16,550 nucleotides of DNA from UHGV virus genome UHGV-0152507; one strand, written 5' to 3'. The notes below the pieces were generated by a model. The model ran no database searches. It had not been told where the DNA came from and saw nothing but the letters and a program-made list of their open reading frames with translations. This DNA comes from a virus. The position numbers were made by a program, and so were the translations under genes. Position 1 is the stretch's first letter, and each line of letters opens with the position of its first letter. Below are positions 974 through 9,737 of this stretch, in pieces.

Positions 974-1996
974 TTAACTAACCCGCAAAACCCCCGCATT
1001 GCCTCCAGAGTGTGGACGCAATGTGGACATTCCACTAAGGGGATTATAACTCACCGCATCCAGTAAATAGTCCGGCGCGAAGTGAGCATAGGTCATAGTT
1101 TGCGATATGTCGGAATGACCAAGAATTCGTTGTAACGCGATAATATTTCCGCCCTTAATCATGAAGTGCGTGGCGAACGTATGACGTAGCGCGTGCGCGG
1201 CTTGCCCATCTGGAAGATTGGGCTTTGCTTCTTTCATGCGCAGACGGAAGGTTTTATAGCTCACGCGGAACAGTCTTCCCGATTCCTGATGTTTCACTAT
1301 TTTTGCAATGTCGTCAGATATGGGGACCACACGCCGATCTCCGTTTTTAGTGATCGTAAACATCACCCTGTTACCGACAATGTTTTCCGCTTTAAGCTGG
1401 TAGGCTTCACCCCATCGAGCACCGGTAGCAAGCAGCAGAACGGCGATGCGGTAGTAATCACCTGAGCACAGGGATAGCAGCCGGTTTACTTCCGACTCAG
1501 TGAAATACGACATTTCCGTTTTTGGCTCTTTCAGCGCTGAAATTGCTGTTACCGGGTTTTCACCGTGAAACTCATCAATTTCGGCCATAGCTTTAAACAC
1601 ACCACTAAGTGCAAACAGGTCATGATTTATCGTTGAAGCCTTGATCCCTTGCTCCAGCCTATATGCCCGGTAATCAATAAGACATCGCGCATCAATCTGG
1701 TAAATCATGGGATCCCCCATATCGTGGCAAATACAGTTAACAGCACTAAGCCTGCGGTTTGCGTAGTTCTTATTCCGTCCGATTAACTGCCACCATAACG
1801 CGATAAATTCGCTTAGTTTTCGCTTATCAGCCGGTCTATTTAAAAAATCATGGTTCTGATACTTGGCAATAATGCTTCGCTCAAAAGCGTGCGCATCTGC
1901 CTTTCTCTCAAACTTCCGCCGAATGCGCTTTCCGTCGCGCCCGCGCGGCCTGACATCCACTTCATAGCGACCATCTTCGAGTTTCTTAACGGACAT
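974..1996 (-). CDS. int: Tyrosine integrase (P2 Int family)
   Basis: Shows the catalytic signature ATGARWGE, HALRHTFATHF, LGHSDISQTMTYAH. I prefer the ATG at 1996 (GGAGGG 7 nt upstream) to the TTG at 2011 used by the ORF track. Confidence 0.93.
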   Translation of the reverse strand: MSVKKLEDGRYEVDVRPRGRDGKRIRRKFERKADAHAFERSIIAKYQNHDFLNRPADKRKLSEFIALWWQLIGRNKNYANRRLSAVNCICHDMGDPMIYQIDARCLIDYRAYRLEQGIKASTINHDLFALSGVFKAMAEIDEFHGENPVTAISALKEPKTEMSYFTESEVNRLLSLCSGDYYRIAVLLLATGARWGEAYQLKAENIVGNRVMFTITKNGDRRVVPISDDIAKIVKHQESGRLFRVSYKTFRLRMKEAKPNLPDGQAAHALRHTFATHFMIKGGNIIALQRILGHSDISQTMTYAHFAPDYLLDAVSYNPLSGMSTLRPHSGGNAGVLRVS

Positions 1997-2065
1997 AAGA
2001 AAACCCTCCAACAGTCAGATCACTATCCTGGTAACAAATAGTGAAAATGTAATGTTTATATAATG

Positions 2066-4474: not shown

Positions 4475-5479
4475 ATGATTCGATCTCTCGTTAAATGGCC
4501 CGGTGGTAAAGGCCGCGTTATGCCTGATTTGCTGCCGATTCTGCCGAAAGCCGATTGCCTGGTGGAACCGTTTGTCGGCGGAGCTTCTGTTTTCCTCAAT
4601 ACTGAATATCGCCGTTATATCCTGGGTGATATCAACCCAGATTTAATTAACCTGTATCGCCAGATAACCCGCTGGCCTGATGCGGTGATCGACGCTGCTC
4701 GCCCGCTGTTTAAAGTGTACGGTGATAAAGACGGCTATAAGTGGATCCGCGACGATTTCAACGCCCGCGCCCATGACCTTCTGTCATCGCGCAATGTGTT
4801 TGAGGACGGACCGGACGCGGGCAAGATTCTTCGTGCAGCACAGTTTCTTTACCTGAACCGTCACGGATATAACGGCGTAGTGCGCTACAACCAACAGGGC
4901 GGATATAACGTTCCCTTTGGTAGACACAAAACCCCGCCTTACTTCCCGGAAGAACAGATCCGTTTATTCTCTGAAAAAGCTAACGACACGAAAGCTATTT
5001 TCGTGTGCTGCGATTTCCAGAGCACGTTAAAAATCATGATTGGTAGTGACGCGGTTATCTACTGCGATCCGCCATACCTGCCAGCAAGCGACACCGCTAA
5101 TTTCACCCAATACCACACCGCCCCGTTTGGCATTAAAGAGCATCGCCAGTTAGCTGCCGCCCTGCTGGATATTAACCGCCTTACTGGTTCGCCGGTGATC
5201 CTGTCCAATAGCGACACCCCATCTACCCGCGAGATTTATCGCGCTTTCAACTTCCAGGAAATCAGCGTTAACCGTTCTGTCAGCGCGAACGCCATTACCA
5301 GAGGGGCCGCCAGTGAAGTGATCGGCGTGCTGCCTGTCTGTGATGGCTGCGGGCGCTATGAAGGTGGTCACTGTGCGAAATGTTGCCCAGGTATCGCCGC
5401 ATGTGAGGAGGGATGGTCGTTTGATTGTCGAGGCAACTGCGATATTTGCGAGCCGTCCGATAACCCGGAAACGTGGTAA
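4475..5479 (+). CDS. dam: Dam-type N6-adenine DNA methyltransferase (D12 class) with a 49-aa Cys-rich C-terminal extension
   Basis: Shows KWPGGK, EPFVGGASVF (SAM-binding) and the catalytic DPPY. The canonical domain ends near ...RGAASEVIGV. The tail (5330-5476) carries 9 Cys. RBS GGAGAAAG lies upstream. Confidence 0.92.
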   Translation: MIRSLVKWPGGKGRVMPDLLPILPKADCLVEPFVGGASVFLNTEYRRYILGDINPDLINLYRQITRWPDAVIDAARPLFKVYGDKDGYKWIRDDFNARAHDLLSSRNVFEDGPDAGKILRAAQFLYLNRHGYNGVVRYNQQGGYNVPFGRHKTPPYFPEEQIRLFSEKANDTKAIFVCCDFQSTLKIMIGSDAVIYCDPPYLPASDTANFTQYHTAPFGIKEHRQLAAALLDINRLTGSPVILSNSDTPSTREIYRAFNFQEISVNRSVSANAITRGAASEVIGVLPVCDGCGRYEGGHCAKCCPGIAACEEGWSFDCRGNCDICEPSDNPETW

Positions 5480-5495
5480 TAGCGAGGGATCTGCA

Positions 5496-6125
5496 ATGAG
5501 AAAAACACACGAATTAAAGATTTGGCCGGAGTTTTTTCAACCTGTTATGGACCGCGTGAAATACGCTGAATTGCGCCTAAATGATCGCGACTATAGCGCG
5601 GGCGACGTTTTGTTTTTGCGGGAGTTTTTACCCGCTAGCGGCAAATATTCGGGCAGCTATAACGTAGTAATAATATCTCATGTCGCTGATGTATCGGCGT
5701 TTATGCCGGGGTACGTCCTGCTTAGTTTCACTTCTTTCGTTACGCGCGGCGCTAACTGGCCTTTCCATAAGCCAACTACAGTGGAGGCTGCTGTAACTGC
5801 GGAAGATACTGGTTTTCTTTCGGCGCTTGTCGCCTGCGAGCCTCCCTGTAGCGTGATTCACCAAATGGCACGCCGACTGCTTGATGAACATCCATCGCTT
5901 CCAGTGTCCGAAAAATCTGATCTGTTGCCATGCCCCTTTTGCGGTGAAGCGGCTTTCTTTGACTCTATTTTTGATTACCAGTCAGAAACGCGTGTTTATG
6001 CCCCGTCTTGTACGGAGTGCTCATGCGAATTGATGGACGGCCCGATCATTAACAAATATGGGCGCGGTTGGTATGCCTCAAAGCAGGATGCCGCCGAAGC
6101 CTGGAATAAAAGGCGCTCGCAATGA
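5496..6125 (+). CDS. Fusion protein: N-terminal DUF3850/ASCH-like (PUA fold) domain plus C-terminal Lar-family restriction-alleviation zinc ribbon
   Basis: I prefer the ATG at 5496 (GAGGG 7 nt upstream) to the track start at 5340. The N-terminus HELKIWPEFFQPVMDRVKYAELRLNDRDYSAGDVLFLREF fits the DUF3850 pattern. The C-terminus LLPCPFCGEAAFF...CTECSCEL...AAEAWNKR fits the Lar pattern. Confidence 0.8.
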   Translation: MRKTHELKIWPEFFQPVMDRVKYAELRLNDRDYSAGDVLFLREFLPASGKYSGSYNVVIISHVADVSAFMPGYVLLSFTSFVTRGANWPFHKPTTVEAAVTAEDTGFLSALVACEPPCSVIHQMARRLLDEHPSLPVSEKSDLLPCPFCGEAAFFDSIFDYQSETRVYAPSCTECSCELMDGPIINKYGRGWYASKQDAAEAWNKRRSQ

Positions 6126-7126
6126 CTGCCTATTACAACGAAATCGATCCATATGCAGCACAGTGGCTGCGCAACCTCATTGATGCCGGGCATATTGCGC
6201 CAGGCATTGTTGATACCCGTTCAATTGAGGATGTAACCCCCAATGACCTTAAAGGCTTTACTCAATGTCACTTCTTTGCCGGGATCGGTGTGTGGTCATA
6301 TGCCCTGCGTCTTGTGGGCTGGCCGGACGACAAACCGATCTGGACTGGATCCTGCCCATGCCAGCCTTTCAGCCCGGCAGGCAAAGCAACTGGGTTTGAT
6401 GACGAGCGGCACTTATGGCCCGCCTTTCATTGGCTCATTGCTCAGTGCCGCCCTGTCGTTGTCGCTGGCGAGCAATCTGGAAGCGCTAACGCGAACGTCT
6501 GGCTCGACCTTGTACAAACTGACATGGAAAGCCTGGGCTATGCCTTCGGGGCGGTCGCGTTTCCGTCTGCGAGCGTCGGTGCGCCACACATCTGGGACAG
6601 AGCTTACTGGGTGGCCGACACCAACGGCGAGCGCATGGAAACACCCTGGAAACCAGGGGAGGCAGGGAGGCTTGAATTTGCAAACGGCCACAGCATTAGC
6701 TGGGTGGCCGACACCAACAACGCAGAGCAACAACCAAATCTCAGGAGTTGGAGCTGCTGCAGATCACCCGAAGCGCGGGACAACTTTGGGCGGGGCTGCT
6801 CAGCTGTCGGGGTGGCCGACACCAGCTTCAAGGGACGGCAAGGGGGGGTATCAGGGCGGGAGGATACGCAACGGGAAGCTGTCGACGGACACGCTGGATG
6901 TGACGGCGCAAATTGCGGGACCGGTCCGGTTAACGGTTTCTGGCGATCTGCTGACTGGCTGTATTGCCGGGATGGAAACTGGAGGCCAGTTAAACCCGGA
7001 CTTAAGCCGCTGGTTGATGGGGTTACCGGACGAGTGGGAAAAATCCGCGCCTACGGAAACGCTATCAACGTTGAAGCTGCAACAGCGTTCATAAAGGCTT
7101 ATATGATGGGGGCGTCAAATGTCTGA
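6122..7126 (+). CDS. DNA (cytosine-5) methyltransferase, phage type (frame A)
   Basis: Motif I FFAGIG, motif IV SCPCQPFS, motif VI-like AGEQS, motif VIII-like GAPHIWDRAYWVA and motif X YGNAINV. ATGA overlap with the upstream gene and an 8-nt overlap with gene A. Confidence 0.85.
   Translation: MTAYYNEIDPYAAQWLRNLIDAGHIAPGIVDTRSIEDVTPNDLKGFTQCHFFAGIGVWSYALRLVGWPDDKPIWTGSCPCQPFSPAGKATGFDDERHLWPAFHWLIAQCRPVVVAGEQSGSANANVWLDLVQTDMESLGYAFGAVAFPSASVGAPHIWDRAYWVADTNGERMETPWKPGEAGRLEFANGHSISWVADTNNAEQQPNLRSWSCCRSPEARDNFGRGCSAVGVADTSFKGRQGGVSGREDTQREAVDGHAGCDGANCGTGPVNGFWRSADWLYCRDGNWRPVKPGLKPLVDGVTGRVGKIRAYGNAINVEAATAFIKAYMMGASNV
6243..7094 (+). CDS. Long +1-frame ORF (frame B, 283 aa) nested in the C5-MTase gene. 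It carries GWPTP modules and a motif IX-like segment. Coding status is unresolved.
   Basis: There is no stop from 6237 to 7094. The ORF contains STLYKLTWK...RASVRHTS, three GWPTP modules, GWPTPASRDGKGG and GGQLNPDLSRWLMGLPDEW. No convincing RBS precedes ATG 6243 or ATG 6399. Confidence 0.3.
   Translation: MTLKALLNVTSLPGSVCGHMPCVLWAGRTTNRSGLDPAHASLSARQAKQLGLMTSGTYGPPFIGSLLSAALSLSLASNLEALTRTSGSTLYKLTWKAWAMPSGRSRFRLRASVRHTSGTELTGWPTPTASAWKHPGNQGRQGGLNLQTATALAGWPTPTTQSNNQISGVGAAADHPKRGTTLGGAAQLSGWPTPASRDGKGGYQGGRIRNGKLSTDTLDVTAQIAGPVRLTVSGDLLTGCIAGMETGGQLNPDLSRWLMGLPDEWEKSAPTETLSTLKLQQRS
6607..6826 (+). repeat. Three in-phase copies of a 19-nt repeat within the MTase gene
   Basis: CTGGGTGGCCGACACCAAC occurs at 6607-6625 and 6700-6718, both perfect. 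The copy at 6808-6826 matches 17/19. Offsets are 93 and 108 nt, both multiples of 3. Confidence 0.95.
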
Positions 7127-9737
7127 CGCCGCCTTTGCATGGCCCTGGAACGCGCCGCGCCCAGCTGTTGGCCTGTACACCTACGAACCGAAAAAAATCG
7201 CCCCGCTTGCCGGGGCGGTGGCGCATCATCCTGCCGTAAAAAAACACATCGATCACATATTCAAACGCGCCGGTTACAACCCTGACGACGTTCGCGACCG
7301 TGACGCGCTGATCCAGACGCTGGACAGGTACGAACCGTGCGGCCTGCCACTGGCCGCCCAACAAAATATCATCCGGCAGGAAAGTGCAGCCGCGAAAGCT
7401 GCGGCGGCCGCCTGGGCCAATACGCCGGAAGGTGTCGAAGCGCGTTTGTTGTCTGAGCCGTTCTTCATCCGCGAAGTCTGGCGCAAAAAAATTGAATGGT
7501 TACGGGCCAACCGTGAAACCAGACACACCAATGATTTTCTTATGGGGACCGTGAAAAAATCATTGCTGCGTCTTGATGTTGTGCGCACAAGGCAAGGTGT
7601 TTCGCCTGATATCACCGGCGAACTGGCCGCGTACTGGTTCGGGCGCTGGCAACGGCTGGCTGATTTCACAAAGCGGGAAGCCCTAAGCGCCGCTAATGAG
7701 ATCGCCAGCCGCATGGCTGAAATGCTGGGGACGGAATGCGAAGCCTTGGGACGAAATGTTTCAGACATGAACGTCGAAGAACTGGACTGGCTTTATTGCC
7801 ACCTGGGCCGTGAAATGCTGGCGCTTCGCATTGTGCCGCCTGCATGGTATGCGCCGTGGGAACGCGAGCGCATATGCACGGCCATTTTGCGTATGGCTTC
7901 GCCTGACTGGTGGGGGCGCAAAATCTGGCGCTTGCGTTGTGACTGGCGCGAAAACCAGCTGCGTGCTGTTGGCGCGGTAAATAAAAAAGCGCATCCGTAT
8001 ATCAGTGCATCAAGCCTGATGGAATGGCAGGAACAGCGACGTAAAAACCGTAATTTCTTCAAAAGTCATGAACTGGTAGACGAAGACGGCAACGTTTCGT
8101 CGCTTGAGGACATGATTAACAAATCCACGTCTAACCCTGCAATTCGTCGTCATGAGCTTATGGCCCGTATGGCTGGCGTGGAGCTTGTCGCCCAGAGTCG
8201 TGGCGATGTTGGCATCTTCCTGACCATCACTTGCCCGTCGAAATATCACGGCAATATTGCGTCCGGCCACCATAACGCAAAATGGAACTACGACACGGTT
8301 GCACAGGCGCAACGCTATTTATGCCGCGTATGGAACCGGGCAACCGCCAAACTGAAACGCGAAGATTTGCGCCCTTACGGCTTCCGCGTCGCCGAGCCGC
8401 ATCACGACGGAACGCCACACTGGCACGCCCTGCTATTTATGCCGCAGGCAGAAGTTAAAGCCACGGTAGCGATTTTGCGTGATTACTTTGTCAAAGAGGA
8501 CCGCGCCGAACTGGGGCGTAATACCGGTGCTCGCTTCAAGTCCAAAAAAATGGACCCACGGAAAGGGTCAGCAACGGCGTATATCGCGAAATACATTTCG
8601 AAGAATATCGACGGCCATGCGCTGGCCGGTGAACTGGACGACGAAAGCGGCAAGCCGCTGAATGAAACAGCCAAATATGCAATGGCCTGGGCATCACTTC
8701 ACCGCATCCGTCAGTTTCAGCCCATCGGACAGCCGCCCATATCGGTTTACCGCGAGCTGCGCAAACTGAGCAATCAGATCACGACGCGCCAGAAAATTGA
8801 CAATACCTTCAAGCGCGGTGCGCCGTTGCTTGTGGATCCTGCTATGGATGCGGTTTGCGCCGCTGCGGATGTCGGGTGCTTTGCTACCTACATCATCCGC
8901 CAGGGTGGTGTTTTGATCCCGCGAGAAAACTATGTCGTCCGTCTGGCCTATCAGCCAGCTGATGAAATGAATGCTTATTGTGAGATCCCCGAAAAGGTAT
9001 TCGGGGTCTGGTCGCCACGTCTGGGGGATGCCTCCCGCATTTGCACCCGTCTGGTTAAGTGGAAAATCCGCGCCAAATCCAAAGCCACCACCGGGGCCAA
9101 AAACGGCCCCGGTTTGGGGGTTGACCTTTTGCCGTCGCCAACCGGCGACGCTTGGAGTTCTGTCAATAACTCTACGGAAGACGAAAAAATCACCGATTTT
9201 TCGCCTGATGTGGAAGGGGTGACAGGAGGAGCAGAAGGGGAAATCGGCGATGTTGAAAACATGGACCAACCGACACGGCGAAAATTGATGCGGCGACTAC
9301 GTGAAACACCATTCAAAAGGCAGCAAAACGGATCACCTTATGAGCCAGGCAGCGAATTAGATGTCGCCTGGCGTTCTGCCGTGGAAAAAACCGAGGCCAG
9401 ATCGGCGGCAGAAAAGGCCAAACGGGCGGCGCTTGCCCCTGCTGTTGCCAGCCTGCTGGCAGATGCGGCGTTGTATTCGGTTGAGATTTCAGAGATTCAG
9501 GCCGTTTCGCTGTTAATGGGGAGTTGTCTGGAGATTGGCGGCAAAGTTTATCGGGCCAGTGCTGACGGCCAGTTGATAACGCGTCAATTACCCGACGAGT
9601 CACGGACGGTGAATAAATTATGGGAACGTCTGCGGGATAACCACGGCATAGATGCCACGCGCCTGCGGTTCGACCCTGCGGGCGAATACGCAAAGATGTT
9701 AACGAAAGCAATTAATTGCGCTGACAAAAAGGGGTGA
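7119..9737 (+). CDS. A: Replication initiation endonuclease gpA (HUH rolling-circle nickase, Phage_GPA family)
   Basis: 872 aa with HUH motif PHWHALLF and Tyr motif AYIAKYISKN. Its position, last in the early operon, matches P2. Confidence 0.93.
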   Translation: MSDAAFAWPWNAPRPAVGLYTYEPKKIAPLAGAVAHHPAVKKHIDHIFKRAGYNPDDVRDRDALIQTLDRYEPCGLPLAAQQNIIRQESAAAKAAAAAWANTPEGVEARLLSEPFFIREVWRKKIEWLRANRETRHTNDFLMGTVKKSLLRLDVVRTRQGVSPDITGELAAYWFGRWQRLADFTKREALSAANEIASRMAEMLGTECEALGRNVSDMNVEELDWLYCHLGREMLALRIVPPAWYAPWERERICTAILRMASPDWWGRKIWRLRCDWRENQLRAVGAVNKKAHPYISASSLMEWQEQRRKNRNFFKSHELVDEDGNVSSLEDMINKSTSNPAIRRHELMARMAGVELVAQSRGDVGIFLTITCPSKYHGNIASGHHNAKWNYDTVAQAQRYLCRVWNRATAKLKREDLRPYGFRVAEPHHDGTPHWHALLFMPQAEVKATVAILRDYFVKEDRAELGRNTGARFKSKKMDPRKGSATAYIAKYISKNIDGHALAGELDDESGKPLNETAKYAMAWASLHRIRQFQPIGQPPISVYRELRKLSNQITTRQKIDNTFKRGAPLLVDPAMDAVCAAADVGCFATYIIRQGGVLIPRENYVVRLAYQPADEMNAYCEIPEKVFGVWSPRLGDASRICTRLVKWKIRAKSKATTGAKNGPGLGVDLLPSPTGDAWSSVNNSTEDEKITDFSPDVEGVTGGAEGEIGDVENMDQPTRRKLMRRLRETPFKRQQNGSPYEPGSELDVAWRSAVEKTEARSAAEKAKRAALAPAVASLLADAALYSVEISEIQAVSLLMGSCLEIGGKVYRASADGQLITRQLPDESRTVNKLWERLRDNHGIDATRLRFDPAGEYAKMLTKAINCADKKG

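What the first reader, a model, noticed from the sequence alone, without database searches (positions are those of the whole stretch)
6237..7126. C5-MTase gene readable in two same-strand frames for ~860 nt, with canonical methyltransferase motifs split between the frames
Seen directly: frame A (6122-7126, 334 aa) and the +1 frame B overlap almost completely. Frame B has no stop from 6237 to 7094 (286 codons), with ATGs at 6243 and 6399. Frame A carries motif I FFAGIG (6272-6289), motif IV SCPCQPFS (6350-6373), motif VI-like AGEQS (6464-6478), motif VIII-like GAPHIWDRAYWVA (6578-6616) and motif X YGNAINV (7052-7072). Frame B carries STLYKLTWK..RASVRHTS and three GWPTP modules, each preceded by an L..A.L(A/S)G-type segment. 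The third module reads GWPTPASRDGKGG, like the PT(L/P)TxRDxKG segment that opens the target-recognition domain of many C5-MTases. Frame B also carries GGQLNPDLSRWLMGLPDEW (6984-7037), which resembles motif IX (..LTxxExxRLMGFPDxW). Frame A has no motif IX-like segment, and its central ~140 aa (DTNGERMETPWKPGEAGR..SWSCCRSPEARDNFGRGC..) is low-complexity. Frame B has no motifs I, IV or X. A textbook I-IV-VI-VIII-TRD-IX-X enzyme can therefore only be assembled as A then B then A. There are three alternatives. (a) True overprinting, with a second protein made from frame B. (b) Recoding or slippage that gives isoforms. (c) Frame A alone is the enzyme and the frame B similarity is a by-product. From memory, peptides resembling both readings (..GFWR.ADWL.CRDG.WRP..YGNAI and ..GQLNP..SRWLMGLP.EW) occur in annotated phage proteins. 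That would imply both frames stay open across the family, but I cannot verify it here. Two caveats apply. First, 6413-6831 is also open in all three minus-strand frames, so part of the stop depletion is compositional. Second, codon usage by eye does not discriminate the frames, since both contain AGG and GGA. The candidate shift sites are weak: GGG-AGG at 6665-6670 for +1, and GGGAAAAAT at 7036-7044 for -1, which is not a canonical X-XXY-YYZ heptamer.
Basis: partly seen in the sequence, partly recalled or inferred. Interest (0 to 1): 0.8.

Follow-up and report, generated by a model that had tools for sequence, protein, structure and literature searches.

The report
Two-frame phage cytosine methyltransferase gene
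One prophage gene for a DNA cytosine methyltransferase really does encode two proteins in two overlapping reading frames, both kept by selection in every relative examined; the layout matches the long-known two-subunit enzyme M.EcoHK31I, but databases almost never annotate the second protein.

Summary
Frame A (6122-7126, 334 aa) and frame B (+1; 6243-7094, 283 aa) are both open in the window. They are also both open in about 165 of the 170 homologous genes I inspected, from phages and bacteria of many genera; the five exceptions carry a point lesion. The third forward frame carries 6-27 stops.

Substitution patterns by codon position show where each frame is selected:
- 5' third: frame A.
- Central about 290 nt: frame B only; frame A is merely kept open.
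- About 6500-6620 and 6908-7040: both frames.
- After 7040: frame A again.

Frame B has its own conserved Shine-Dalgarno plus ATG, with SD/start covariation. No conserved slippery site exists, so a single A-B-A chain made by recoding is not supported.

AlphaFold folds frame A as a C5-methyltransferase large domain, then a disordered linker of about 110 aa, then the motif X helix. Frame B alone does not fold.

Best model: a heterodimeric alpha/beta C5-methyltransferase. Beta, with its modular GWPTP cassettes and a motif IX-like end, is encoded inside the alpha gene, as in M.EcoHK31I. The subunit role of B is inferred, not shown. Its motif IX identity is not statistically supported.

The parts
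6122..7126 (+). Frame A ORF (proposed alpha subunit, 334 aa): C5-MTase large domain, then an unconstrained linker, then a conserved C-terminal segment with motif X
   Evidence: ORF. PF00145 E=3.4e-10 over aa 73-175. phmmer hit to M.HhaI over motifs IV-VIII. phrog_363, E=1.4e-87, full length. AF2 confident for aa 1-170 and 310-331. Foldseek top hits are M.HhaI and M.HaeIII.
6243..7094 (+). Frame B ORF (+1 relative to A; proposed beta subunit, 283 aa)
   Evidence: ORF. 4707 database proteins at E<=1e-3. 10,610 50%-identity cluster representatives at E<=1e-3. phrog_31772 and phrog_1008. Open in every inspected homologue whose B frame could be read.
6227..6231 (+). GAGGA, Shine-Dalgarno-like element for the frame B start at 6243 (11-nt spacer)
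   Evidence: Read from the sequence. All 19 homologues that use this '+25' start have an SD-like motif upstream.
6231..6236 (+). ATG-TAA in frame B: remnant of the start position used by most of the family ('+13'), here closed at once by a stop
   Evidence: 47 of 66 unique genes start frame B at this position, and 46 of those have (A/C)GGAG 8 nt upstream.
6272..6289 (+). Frame A motif I (FFAGIG)
   Evidence: Conserved in the family.
6350..6373 (+). Frame A motif IV (SCPCQPFS; catalytic Cys)
6464..6478 (+). Frame A motif VI variant (AGEQS, in place of ENV)
6578..6616 (+). Frame A motif VIII region (GAPHIWDRAYWVA)
   Evidence: Aligned to M.HhaI 'GIPQKRERIYMI'. Conserved.
6350..7037 (+). Part of frame B under amino-acid constraint (ASLSARQ..TSGTYG .. 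GSTLYKLTWK .. RLRAS.RRTS .. GWPTP cassettes .. RLTxSGxxLTG .. GGQLNPxxSRWLMGLPxEW)
   Evidence: Sliding-window substitution rates by codon position. Consensus and identity per block.
6500..6620 (+). First doubly constrained stretch: A motifs VII-VIII overlapping B GSTLYKLTWK..RLRASxRRTS
   Evidence: Rates at A codon positions 1/2/3 are 0.15/0.07/0.14. Mean pairwise aa identity is A 0.64 and B 0.61.
6620..6905 (+). Central stretch where only frame B is constrained. Frame A here is an open but freely evolving, predicted-disordered linker.
   Evidence: Rates at A positions 1/2/3 are 0.27/0.11/0.12. Frame A stops: 0 observed vs 142 expected; third frame: 293 vs 314. AF2 pLDDT 24-43 for aa 172-283.
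6609..6701 (+). Frame B GWPTP cassette 1 (type T1)
6702..6809 (+). Frame B GWPTP cassette 2 (type T6)
6810..6920 (+). Frame B GWPTP cassette 3 (type T0, GWPTPxxRDxKGGYQGGRIRNGKLSTDxLDV; the usual last cassette)
6601..6824 (+). Three direct DNA repeats (6601-6623, 6694-6716, 6802-6824; spacing 93 and 108 nt) that encode GWPTP in B and (W/G)VADT in A
6908..7040 (+). Second doubly constrained stretch: A NGFWxxADWLxCRDGKWRPVxPGxxPLxxGxxxRVG overlapping B RLTxSGxxLTGxxAGMExGGQLNPxxSRWLMGLPxEW
   Evidence: Mean pairwise aa identity is A 0.66 and B 0.69 over the same 132 nt in 65 unique genes. Rates.
6981..7037 (+). Frame B motif IX-like segment (GGQLNPDLSRWLMGLPDEW)
   Evidence: Position. Gap-free resemblance to LxPRExARxxGxPDxF, recalled from memory. 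No profile support.
7052..7072 (+). Frame A motif X (YGNAINV), at the start of the confident C-terminal helices
6842..6848 (+). G7 tract (Gly-Gly in both frames): a possible indel or slippage hotspot, not conserved in the family
   Evidence: G runs of 6 or more in 19 of 66 genes; a natural 1-nt deletion in the equivalent G6 tract fuses A to B.

Best explanation
The locus is a dual-coding gene of a P2-like prophage that makes two proteins from one mRNA by two independent initiations.

Alpha. Ribosomes starting at ATG 6122 read frame A to 7126. This gives the AdoMet-binding and catalytic large domain of a C5 DNA methyltransferase (motifs I, IV, VI, VIII). It is followed by a sequence-free disordered tether of about 95-110 aa, then a conserved C-terminal piece ending in the motif X helix.

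Beta. Ribosomes starting at ATG 6243, which has its own Shine-Dalgarno GAGGA at 6227-6231, read the +1 frame to 7094. After a dispensable N-terminal leader, beta carries a conserved hairpin-like segment (GSTLYKLTWK..RLRASxRRTS). It then has one to seven interchangeable GWPTP cassettes; the window has three. It ends in an invariant core with a motif IX-like LNPxxSRWLMGLPxEW.

I propose that alpha and beta assemble into one enzyme. Beta would supply the small, DNA-recognition domain that alpha lacks. This is the arrangement of M.EcoHK31I, whose beta chain is encoded in another frame inside the alpha gene. The enzyme would methylate phage DNA to protect it from restriction.

Shown: both frames are open and under purifying selection family-wide; each frame is constrained in defined places; frame B has a conserved start signal; frame A has the large-domain fold plus a disordered centre.

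Inferred: translation of B in vivo, alpha-beta assembly, beta as TRD plus motif IX, and the anti-restriction role.
For: 1. Frame B is open over 80-98% of the gene in 84 of 84 phage genes, while the third frame has 6-26 stops. The same holds in six further phages, including Rhodobacter, Pseudomonas, cyanobacterial and Komagataeibacter phages, and in 78 of 80 bacterial genomes.

2. Shuffle tests. Frame B stops: 0 observed vs about 313 expected. Frame A stops in the centre: 0 vs 142. Third-frame control: 293 vs 314.

3. Differences at A codon positions 1/2/3 in 239 pairs of 80-98.5% identity: 0.06/0.04/0.31 before B; 0.11/0.09/0.29 over motifs I-VI; 0.15/0.07/0.14 from GSTLY to GWPTP; 0.27/0.11/0.12 in the centre, where B's third position is the most variable; 0.11/0.07/0.17 in the C-terminal overlap; 0.15/0.11/0.30 after B.

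4. Both translations of the same 132 nt are conserved: A 0.66 and B 0.69 mean identity.

5. All 66 unique genes have a frame B ATG at one of two positions 12 nt apart. Of the 47 that use the first position, 46 have (A/C)GGAG 8 nt upstream, made by AGG or CGG for one Arg codon. The 19 that use the second position have CGC, CGT or CGA at that codon and a GAGGA instead. AGG is only 8% of the other Arg codons.

6. AF2 of frame A is confident for aa 1-170 and 310-331 and disordered for 172-283. It matches M.HhaI and M.HaeIII over about 200 columns. Frame A therefore has no folded small domain.

7. Precedent: the M.EcoHK31I beta chain is encoded entirely in another frame of the alpha gene. Alpha has motifs I-VIII and X, beta has motif IX, and both are needed (PMC2836561; PMC3404938).

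8. Context: the gene sits with a Dam-type methyltransferase and a Lar restriction-alleviation domain, just upstream of gpA.

9. Some depositors already annotate both ORFs (phage K1ind2) or only frame B (PMG1 and Cr-LKS3).
Against: There is no experimental evidence here that frame B is translated or that it binds alpha.

The motif IX assignment of frame B rests on a short gap-free resemblance only. Pfam gives no gain for a chimera. Profiles of B find no methyltransferase in the PDB. hhalign against E. coli Dcm is at noise level.

AF2 gives no fold for B alone (pLDDT 31). That fits a subunit that folds on its partner, but equally fits a disordered protein with another role.

Frame A's own C-terminal segment (KWRPVEPGTFPL) could be a degenerate motif IX, which would leave no gap for B to fill.

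The M.EcoHK31I sequence could not be obtained, so homology to it is untested. In that enzyme the TRD was assigned to alpha, not beta.

The substitution counts use non-independent pairs.
Confidence: 0.62

Rival explanations
1. Frame B is a genuine second protein, overprinted on the methyltransferase gene, but its job is unrelated to methylation. It could be, for example, a disordered regulator or an anti-defence factor. Frame A alone is the enzyme.
For: B has no significant similarity to any solved structure or Pfam family. AF2 sees no fold. Its composition (S, T, G, P, A, R-rich) is typical of overprinted frames. The cassette shuffling of 179 architectures in 326 proteins would also suit a protein in an arms race.
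Against: Frame A has no folded domain between motif VIII and motif X. C5-methyltransferases need a small domain to recognise DNA (PMC3404938). In every locus inspected, B was found only inside an A-type gene. The only experimentally studied gene with this layout, M.EcoHK31I, needs both chains.
Confidence: 0.2
2. Recoding. Ribosomal +1 frameshifting or transcriptional slippage moves ribosomes from A into B, and perhaps back. This would give fused isoforms (I-VIII, TRD, IX, with or without X) as the functional enzyme.
For: The window has a G7 tract (6842-6848) and GGGAAAAAT (7036-7044). Single-chain A-to-B proteins are numerous in databases. One of them, a 1-nt deletion in a G6 tract, occurs on 20 contigs.
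Against: No slippery heptamer or homopolymer is conserved. G runs of 6 or more occur in only 19 of 66 genes, and A-frame heptamers in at most 11 of 66 per segment. The junctions of the database chimeras are scattered from before GSTLY to late in the centre, and most are singletons, as expected from sporadic indels or sequencing errors. B is kept open, with its own SD+ATG, about 370 nt upstream of the first GWPTP. Both frames are constrained over the same nucleotides in two places, which one chain cannot explain. A chimera gains nothing against PF00145.
Confidence: 0.07
3. Frame B is not translated. Its openness and apparent conservation come from base composition, from strong constraint on frame A, or from DNA or RNA-level signals such as the three 17-23 nt repeats next to the replication gene.
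For: GC is 59% and the region carries direct repeats. B has no recognised domain.
Against: The third forward frame and all minus-strand frames carry 5-15 stops in the same span. Shuffles that keep frame A's protein and codon usage expect about 5 stops. In the centre the most variable position is B's third codon position and A evolves freely. That is a protein-coding signature in B, not a nucleotide-level one. The SD/ATG covariation has no explanation under this view.
Confidence: 0.03

Closest known systems
M.EcoHK31I (YGGCCR) heterodimeric C5-methyltransferase (Lee, Kam and Shaw 1995; described in PMC2836561 and PMC3404938)
   Same: The smaller chain is encoded entirely inside the gene of the larger chain in a different reading frame on the same strand. 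The large chain carries motifs I-VIII and X. The small chain carries a motif IX(-like) segment. The N-terminal part of the small chain is dispensable or unconstrained. Sizes are similar: alpha about 38 kDa and beta about 23 kDa, judged from the plasmid names pET3a-M38 and pET3a-C23, against 334 aa and a constrained B core of about 230 aa here.
   Different: Sequence homology could not be tested because the sequence is not held here. In M.EcoHK31I the TRD was assigned to alpha. Here the alpha region between motifs VIII and X is unconstrained and disordered, and the TRD-like GWPTP cassettes are in beta. M.EcoHK31I belongs to a restriction-modification system, whereas this gene is an orphan in a prophage early operon. 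No cassette modularity is reported for it.
M.AquI split C5-methyltransferase (alpha: motifs I-VIII; beta: IX-X)
   Same: A C5-methyltransferase made of two polypeptides, split within the variable region (PMC3404938).
   Different: In M.AquI the two chains divide the enzyme in series, and motif X goes with IX in the small chain. I recall that its two ORFs are consecutive, with at most a short overlap. Here the ORFs overlap over 852 nt and motif X stays in the large chain.
Multispecific C5-methyltransferases of Bacillus phages (SPR, phi3T, rho11s); from my own knowledge
   Same: Phage-borne orphan C5-methyltransferases with tandem, exchangeable modules of about 40 aa between motif VIII and motif IX.
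   Different: Those are single chains in one frame, and their modules are proven TRDs. Here the cassettes are in a separate overlapping frame and their role is untested.
Programmed frameshift genes of phages and bacteria (tail chaperone G/GT, dnaX, prfB)
   Same: Two same-strand frames are used within one gene.
   Different: Those have a fixed slippery site and give a fused product, and the second frame is open only downstream of that site. None of this holds here.

Membership tests
C5 DNA cytosine methyltransferase (PF00145), frame A | Significant match to the family profile | tested here: met
   PF00145 E=3.4e-10, 40.3 bits (cut-off 22), covering only profile positions 64-171. phrog_363 E=1.4e-87.
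C5 DNA cytosine methyltransferase (PF00145), frame A | Catalytic motifs I (FxGxG), IV (PCQ), VI (ENV), VIII (QxRxR) | tested here: met
   FFAGIG, PCQPFS, GEQ (a variant of ENV) and APHIWDR (most relatives have APHIRDR), aligned to M.HhaI.
C5 DNA cytosine methyltransferase (PF00145), frame A | Large-domain fold with the motif X helix returning to it | tested here: met
   AF2 pLDDT is 80-90 for most of aa 1-150 (lower for 81-90, 121-130 and 151-160) and 71-84 for aa 310-330. Foldseek gives M.HhaI 1e-7 and M.HaeIII 2.6e-7.
C5 DNA cytosine methyltransferase (PF00145), frame A | Folded small domain (TRD plus motif IX) between motifs VIII and X in the same chain | tested here: not met
   aa 172-283 have pLDDT 24-43, with no amino-acid constraint and no profile match.
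M.EcoHK31I-type alpha/beta C5-methyltransferase | Small-chain ORF nested in another frame of the large-chain gene | tested here: met
   6243-7094 lies inside 6122-7126, in the +1 frame. This is conserved family-wide.
M.EcoHK31I-type alpha/beta C5-methyltransferase | Independent translation start for the small chain | tested here: met
   Conserved SD+ATG with covariation. Computational evidence only.
M.EcoHK31I-type alpha/beta C5-methyltransferase | Small chain carries motif IX | tested here: inconclusive
   LNPDLSRWLMGLPDEW aligns without gaps to the motif IX pattern as I recall it. No significant profile hit.
M.EcoHK31I-type alpha/beta C5-methyltransferase | Both chains are required for methylation and they associate | not testable with these tools
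   Needs expression and assay.
M.EcoHK31I-type alpha/beta C5-methyltransferase | Sequence homology to M.EcoHK31I alpha and beta | not testable with these tools
   The 1995 paper and the sequence are not held. There is no name search of the protein collections.
Programmed ribosomal frameshift or transcriptional slippage gene | Slippery site conserved at a fixed position | tested here: not met
Programmed ribosomal frameshift or transcriptional slippage gene | Second frame needed only downstream of the shift site | tested here: not met
   B is open from its own ATG near A codon 41 in all genes. For that upstream stretch, 0 stops are observed vs 124 expected.
Multispecific phage C5-methyltransferases (tandem TRDs) | Tandem exchangeable modules, each conferring one target specificity | not tested
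   Modularity is seen: 1-7 cassettes, about 100 types, 179 architectures. Specificity cannot be assessed here.

The most novel reading that the evidence does not exclude
Frame B is the DNA-specificity subunit of a very large, essentially unannotated class of heterodimeric phage C5-methyltransferases. Its GWPTP cassettes (about 100 types, shuffled into hundreds of architectures) would be exchangeable target-recognition modules. Each phage would then carry a multispecific, rapidly re-programmable methyltransferase whose whole specificity subunit is written in the +1 frame of the catalytic subunit's gene. The catalytic subunit's own central 100 or so residues would serve only as a read-through tether.
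Probability: 0.3. Interest if true: 0.8.

Novelty: new member of a known kind. Interest (0 to 1): 0.6.

Why it matters
A same-strand overlap of about 850 nt, 85% of the gene, is to my knowledge very long for bacteria and phages. Here it is conserved across phages and prophages of Enterobacterales, Pseudomonas, Burkholderiales, Rhodobacter, Sphingomonas, Xanthomonas and cyanobacteria. More than 10,000 50%-identity clusters of the frame B product exist.

The annotation problem is practical:
- PGAP-annotated and most other records inspected name only frame A.
- Some phage records name only frame B as 'methyltransferase'.
- Some pipelines split frame A into two 'partial' pseudogenes.
- Frame A's central 100 residues in the databases are in effect not a protein sequence under selection.

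If the two products form one enzyme, then any expression of frame A alone to determine specificity, or any knockout designed on frame A, would be misread.

The locus is also a clean natural test case for methods that detect overlapping genes. It contains stretches constrained in A only, in B only and in both, in one gene. It also offers a route to understanding how phages diversify methylation specificity.

Tried and rejected
1. Pfam on frame B, on an A-B-A chimera and on the two alternative C-termini: no gain over frame A.

2. phmmer or hmmsearch of B, of the B family alignment and of its 46-aa invariant core against all PDB sequences: only chance hits, to eIF6 and an NTF2-like protein.

3. 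hhalign of the B profiles against E. coli Dcm: probability below 1%.

4. AF2 of B alone: pLDDT 31, unusable, so no fold search was run on it.

5. Search for single-frame relatives that would show the ancestral layout. tblastn of the B C-terminus against 50,697 phage records gave 219 hits. All eight I inspected have the dual-frame layout. The 27 hits on plasmid records were not inspected for frame layout.

6. A chimera query to fish for natural fusions found many. Their junctions are scattered and most are singletons, so I read them as sporadic indels. One was traced to a 1-nt deletion in a G6 tract.

7. Slippery-site scan: nothing conserved. A frequent G_GGT_TTG heptamer in the B phase is simply frame A's Gly-Phe codons and would shift B into A to no purpose.

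8. Attempts to obtain the M.EcoHK31I sequence or the 1995 paper failed. Searching E. coli genomes and plasmids for a restriction-enzyme-linked family member found only prophage or phage-plasmid contexts.

9. Literature searches for a description of this phage family's overlap found none in the held library. 'Mte8-like' is only an annotation label.

10. A paired alpha+beta structure prediction could not be attempted.
Full report
**1. What is in the window**

The window is part of a P2-like (Peduoviridae) prophage. Its genes are:
- an integrase (974-2011, minus strand);
- a D12-class Dam methyltransferase (4475-5479);
- a DUF3850 plus Lar restriction-alleviation protein (ending at 6125);
- the gene in question (6122-7126);
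- the replication endonuclease gpA (7119-9737).

Frame A is an ORF of 334 aa. The +1 frame (frame B) is open from 6237, and its ORF runs 6243-7094 (283 aa).

The frame B motif IX-like segment is at 6981-7037. The claim that 6413-6831 is open in all three minus-strand frames is wrong, since each has 3-5 stops there.

Over 6237-7094 the stop counts are 0 (A), 0 (B), 15 (third forward frame) and 15, 5 and 7 (minus frames). The depletion is therefore frame-specific.

**2. Is it more than chance?**

Shuffling synonymous codons of frame A keeps the protein and the codon usage. It gives 5.1 +/- 1.5 stops in frame B over its span, and zero stops in 0.15% of shuffles.

The decisive evidence is comparative:
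- I collected 80 homologous genes from IMG/VR (frame A 50-67% identical) and three from GenBank phages.
- In all 84 genes, counting the window, frame +1 is open over 80-98% of the gene. Its few stops lie at the two ends. Frame +2 has 6-26 stops.
- The same layout holds in phages K1ind2, epsilon15, Rhodobacter RcWata, Pseudomonas PMG1, cyanophage Cr-LKS3 and Komagataeibacter phiKX1.
- It holds in 78 of 80 loci from bacterial genomes: Enterobacterales, Pseudomonas, Comamonas, Burkholderiales, Sphingomonas, Massilia and others. The two exceptions carry a nonsense codon in frame A with frame B intact.

Summed over 66 unique genes, frame B has 0 stops where shuffles expect about 313.

The frame B product has been called as a protein thousands of times: 4707 hits at E<=1e-3 among the 8000 scored, and 10,610 cluster representatives at 50% identity. 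It has no Pfam or NCBIfam family, but there are two PHROG families.

**3. Which frame is under selection where**

In 239 gene pairs of 80-98.5% identity I counted differences by codon position of frame A. A position 1 is B position 3, A position 2 is B position 1, and A position 3 is B position 2.

| Segment | Rates at A positions 1/2/3 | Reading |
|---|---|---|
| Before frame B | 0.06/0.04/0.31 | ordinary coding in A |
| Frame B start to GSTLY (motifs I-VI) | 0.11/0.09/0.29 | A coding |
| GSTLY to first GWPTP | 0.15/0.07/0.14 | both frames |
| First GWPTP to NGFW | 0.27/0.11/0.12 | B coding; A free |
| NGFW to end of B | 0.11/0.07/0.17 | both frames |
| After B | 0.15/0.11/0.30 | A coding |

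A 30-nt sliding window refines this. B is constrained from about 6350, and clearly from about 6440, to 7037, exactly the end of ..PDEW. Its last 18 codons are free. A is free from about 6620 to about 6905.

Frame A is nevertheless kept open there. With B treated as the coding frame, shuffles expect 142 frame A stops over the central segments of the 66 genes and none is seen. The third frame has 293 against 314 expected.

Mean pairwise amino-acid identity, A/B:
- motifs I-IV: 0.82/0.42;
- the PCQ block: 0.83/0.61;
- the first overlap: 0.64/0.61;
- the 132-nt C-terminal overlap: 0.66/0.69;
- downstream of it: 0.58/0.42.

Two stretches, about 6500-6620 and 6908-7040, therefore encode two conserved peptides at once. 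A single chain cannot contain both readings, so at least two polypeptides are made.

**4. How frame B is started**

Every one of the 66 unique genes has a frame B ATG at one of two positions. These lie 13 or 25 nt after the first base of the Arg codon in frame A's R-S-I-E-D-V.

Of the 47 genes with the +13 start, 46 have (A/C)GGAG 8 nt upstream. It is created by using AGG (31 genes) or CGG (15 genes) for that Arg.

The 19 genes without an open +13 start all use CGC, CGT or CGA. They have a GAGGA ahead of the +25 ATG. AGG makes up only 8% of the other Arg codons in these genes.

The window belongs to the second group: GAGGA at 6227-6231, a remnant ATG-TAA at 6231-6236, and the working ATG at 6243.

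This covariation of ribosome-binding site and start codon is what a functional internal initiation site predicts. It also explains why frame B must stay open through the first 100 or so codons even though its sequence there is barely constrained.

By contrast, no slippery heptamer or homopolymer is conserved.

**5. What the two products look like**

Frame A:
- It matches PF00145 only over motifs IV-VIII.
- It matches M.HhaI over the same part.
- AlphaFold2 with 45 sequences gives a confident large domain (aa 1-170), no structure for aa 172-283 (pLDDT 24-43) and confident C-terminal helices (aa 310-331, motif X).
- Foldseek places it with M.HhaI and M.HaeIII over about 200 columns.

Frame A thus lacks a folded small domain.

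Frame B alone is not folded by AlphaFold2 (pLDDT 31 with 39 sequences). It has no significant match to any solved structure, whether as a sequence, as a family profile or as its 46-residue invariant core. It has none to E. coli Dcm by profile comparison.

LNPDLSRWLMGLPDEW lines up without gaps with the LxPRExARxxGxPDxF pattern of motif IX as I recall it. GWPTPxxRDxKGG resembles the PTLTxRDxKG start of many TRDs.

**6. Modularity of frame B**

Across 326 family proteins, B carries 1-7 cassettes, most often 3. Each begins with GWPTP and ends with a hydrophobic L-A/S.

Clustering gives about 100 cassette types, about 15 of them common, and 179 different architectures. The window has types T1, T6 and T0.

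Cassette gains and losses are in whole codons, so both frames stay open. In the DNA they appear as 17-23 nt direct repeats spaced 93 and 108 nt apart.

**7. Comparison with what is known**

C5-methyltransferases normally work as monomers, with two exceptions cited in the literature I could read.

The first is M.AquI. Its alpha chain has motifs I-VIII and its beta chain has IX-X.

The second is M.EcoHK31I. [quoted passage not shown] Alpha has motifs I-VIII, X and the presumed TRD, and beta has motif IX. Both are needed for activity, and the first 42 residues of beta are dispensable (PMC2836561; PMC3404938).

That is the same gene architecture as here, so the kind is known. I could not obtain the M.EcoHK31I sequence, so whether it belongs to this family is open.

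The held literature has no description of the phage-wide family. GenBank records show the confusion:
- K1ind2 annotates both ORFs: 'C-specific methylase' and an embedded 'Mte8-like protein'.
- PMG1 and Cr-LKS3 annotate only frame B as methyltransferase.
- PGAP splits one E. coli homologue into two 'partial' pseudogenes.

**8. The single-chain A-to-B proteins**

A query made of A's N-terminal half joined to B's C-terminal half retrieves many database proteins that cover it fully.

Their A-to-B junctions are scattered, from before GSTLY to late in the centre. Nearly all are singletons.

One that is seen on 20 contigs differs from phage SI7 by a 1-nt deletion in a G6 tract.

These are what sporadic indels or homopolymer sequencing errors produce in a region where two frames are open. 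They do not point to a programmed shift. G tracts of 6 or more, including the window's G7 at 6842-6848, occur in 19 of 66 genes.

**9. Conclusion**

The best-supported reading is a dual-coding gene with two independent starts. I am about 90% confident that both frames are coding and selected. I am about 60% confident that the products form an alpha/beta methyltransferase of the M.EcoHK31I type, with beta as the DNA-recognition subunit.

Recoding, by-product and non-translated readings are each poorly supported. The placement beside Dam and Lar suggests an anti-restriction role. That role is an inference.

Noticed in passing
window 4475-6125: Directly upstream lie a D12-class Dam methyltransferase (PF02086, 4475-5479) and a DUF3850 plus Lar restriction-alleviation protein (ORF listed from 5340, ending at 6125). 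Its stop overlaps the frame A start (ATGA at 6122-6125). With the C5 enzyme this forms an apparent anti-restriction block ahead of gpA.
   Followed up: partly
window 6231-6236: ATG-TAA in frame B sits at the position where most relatives start frame B. In this subfamily the start has moved 12 nt downstream, and the Shine-Dalgarno element has moved with it.
   Followed up: yes
window 6842-6848; L172 about 1040-1060; L001 about 2135-2150: G7 tract in the window. In a Citrobacter or SI7-like prophage, a 1-nt deletion in the equivalent G6 tract fuses frame A to the end of frame B. This variant is on 20 contigs from different samples. It could be a clonal mutation, a phase variant or a homopolymer sequencing error.
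   Followed up: partly
L087 (Pseudomonas phage PMG1, NC_016765), about locus 950-1030: Frame A appears interrupted near ..ERSI.., which I read from the translations as an extra 4-nt CGAT unit in a (CGAT)n run, just at the frame B start region. I did not check the DNA directly. The record annotates only frame B as the methyltransferase.
   Followed up: no
L111 and L121 (Variovorax sp.; Pseudomonas saxonica): Frame A carries a single nonsense codon (W58* in L111; codon 17 in L121) while frame B is intact. These may be recent pseudogenes, or cases where B outlives A.
   Followed up: no
L171 (E. coli Ec1117, NZ_CP126602): PGAP annotates a homologue as two 'incomplete' DNA cytosine methyltransferase pseudogenes, with the gap falling where this family's unconstrained centre lies. 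I did not check whether frame A is intact in this locus.
   Followed up: no
L084 (phage K1ind2, GU196280); P0472 (Pseudomonas putida Q9Z406): The label 'Mte8-like protein' on the embedded ORF probably traces to a 1990s P. putida entry named 'MTE8-ECOLI homolog'. That entry is itself an A-to-B chimera lacking motif VIII. I could not establish which E. coli enzyme MTE8 is.
   Followed up: partly
H125 (Streptococcus phage MM1 1998, DQ113772, 8350-8625): A feature is annotated 'C5 methyltransferase alpha subunit' in a pneumococcal phage, so split C5-methyltransferases may exist in unrelated phage groups.
   Followed up: no
window 7119-7126: The gpA start (ATG 7119) overlaps the last codons of frame A by 8 nt. 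Frame B ends 25 nt upstream of it. Translational coupling of gpA to the methyltransferase gene seems likely.
   Followed up: no
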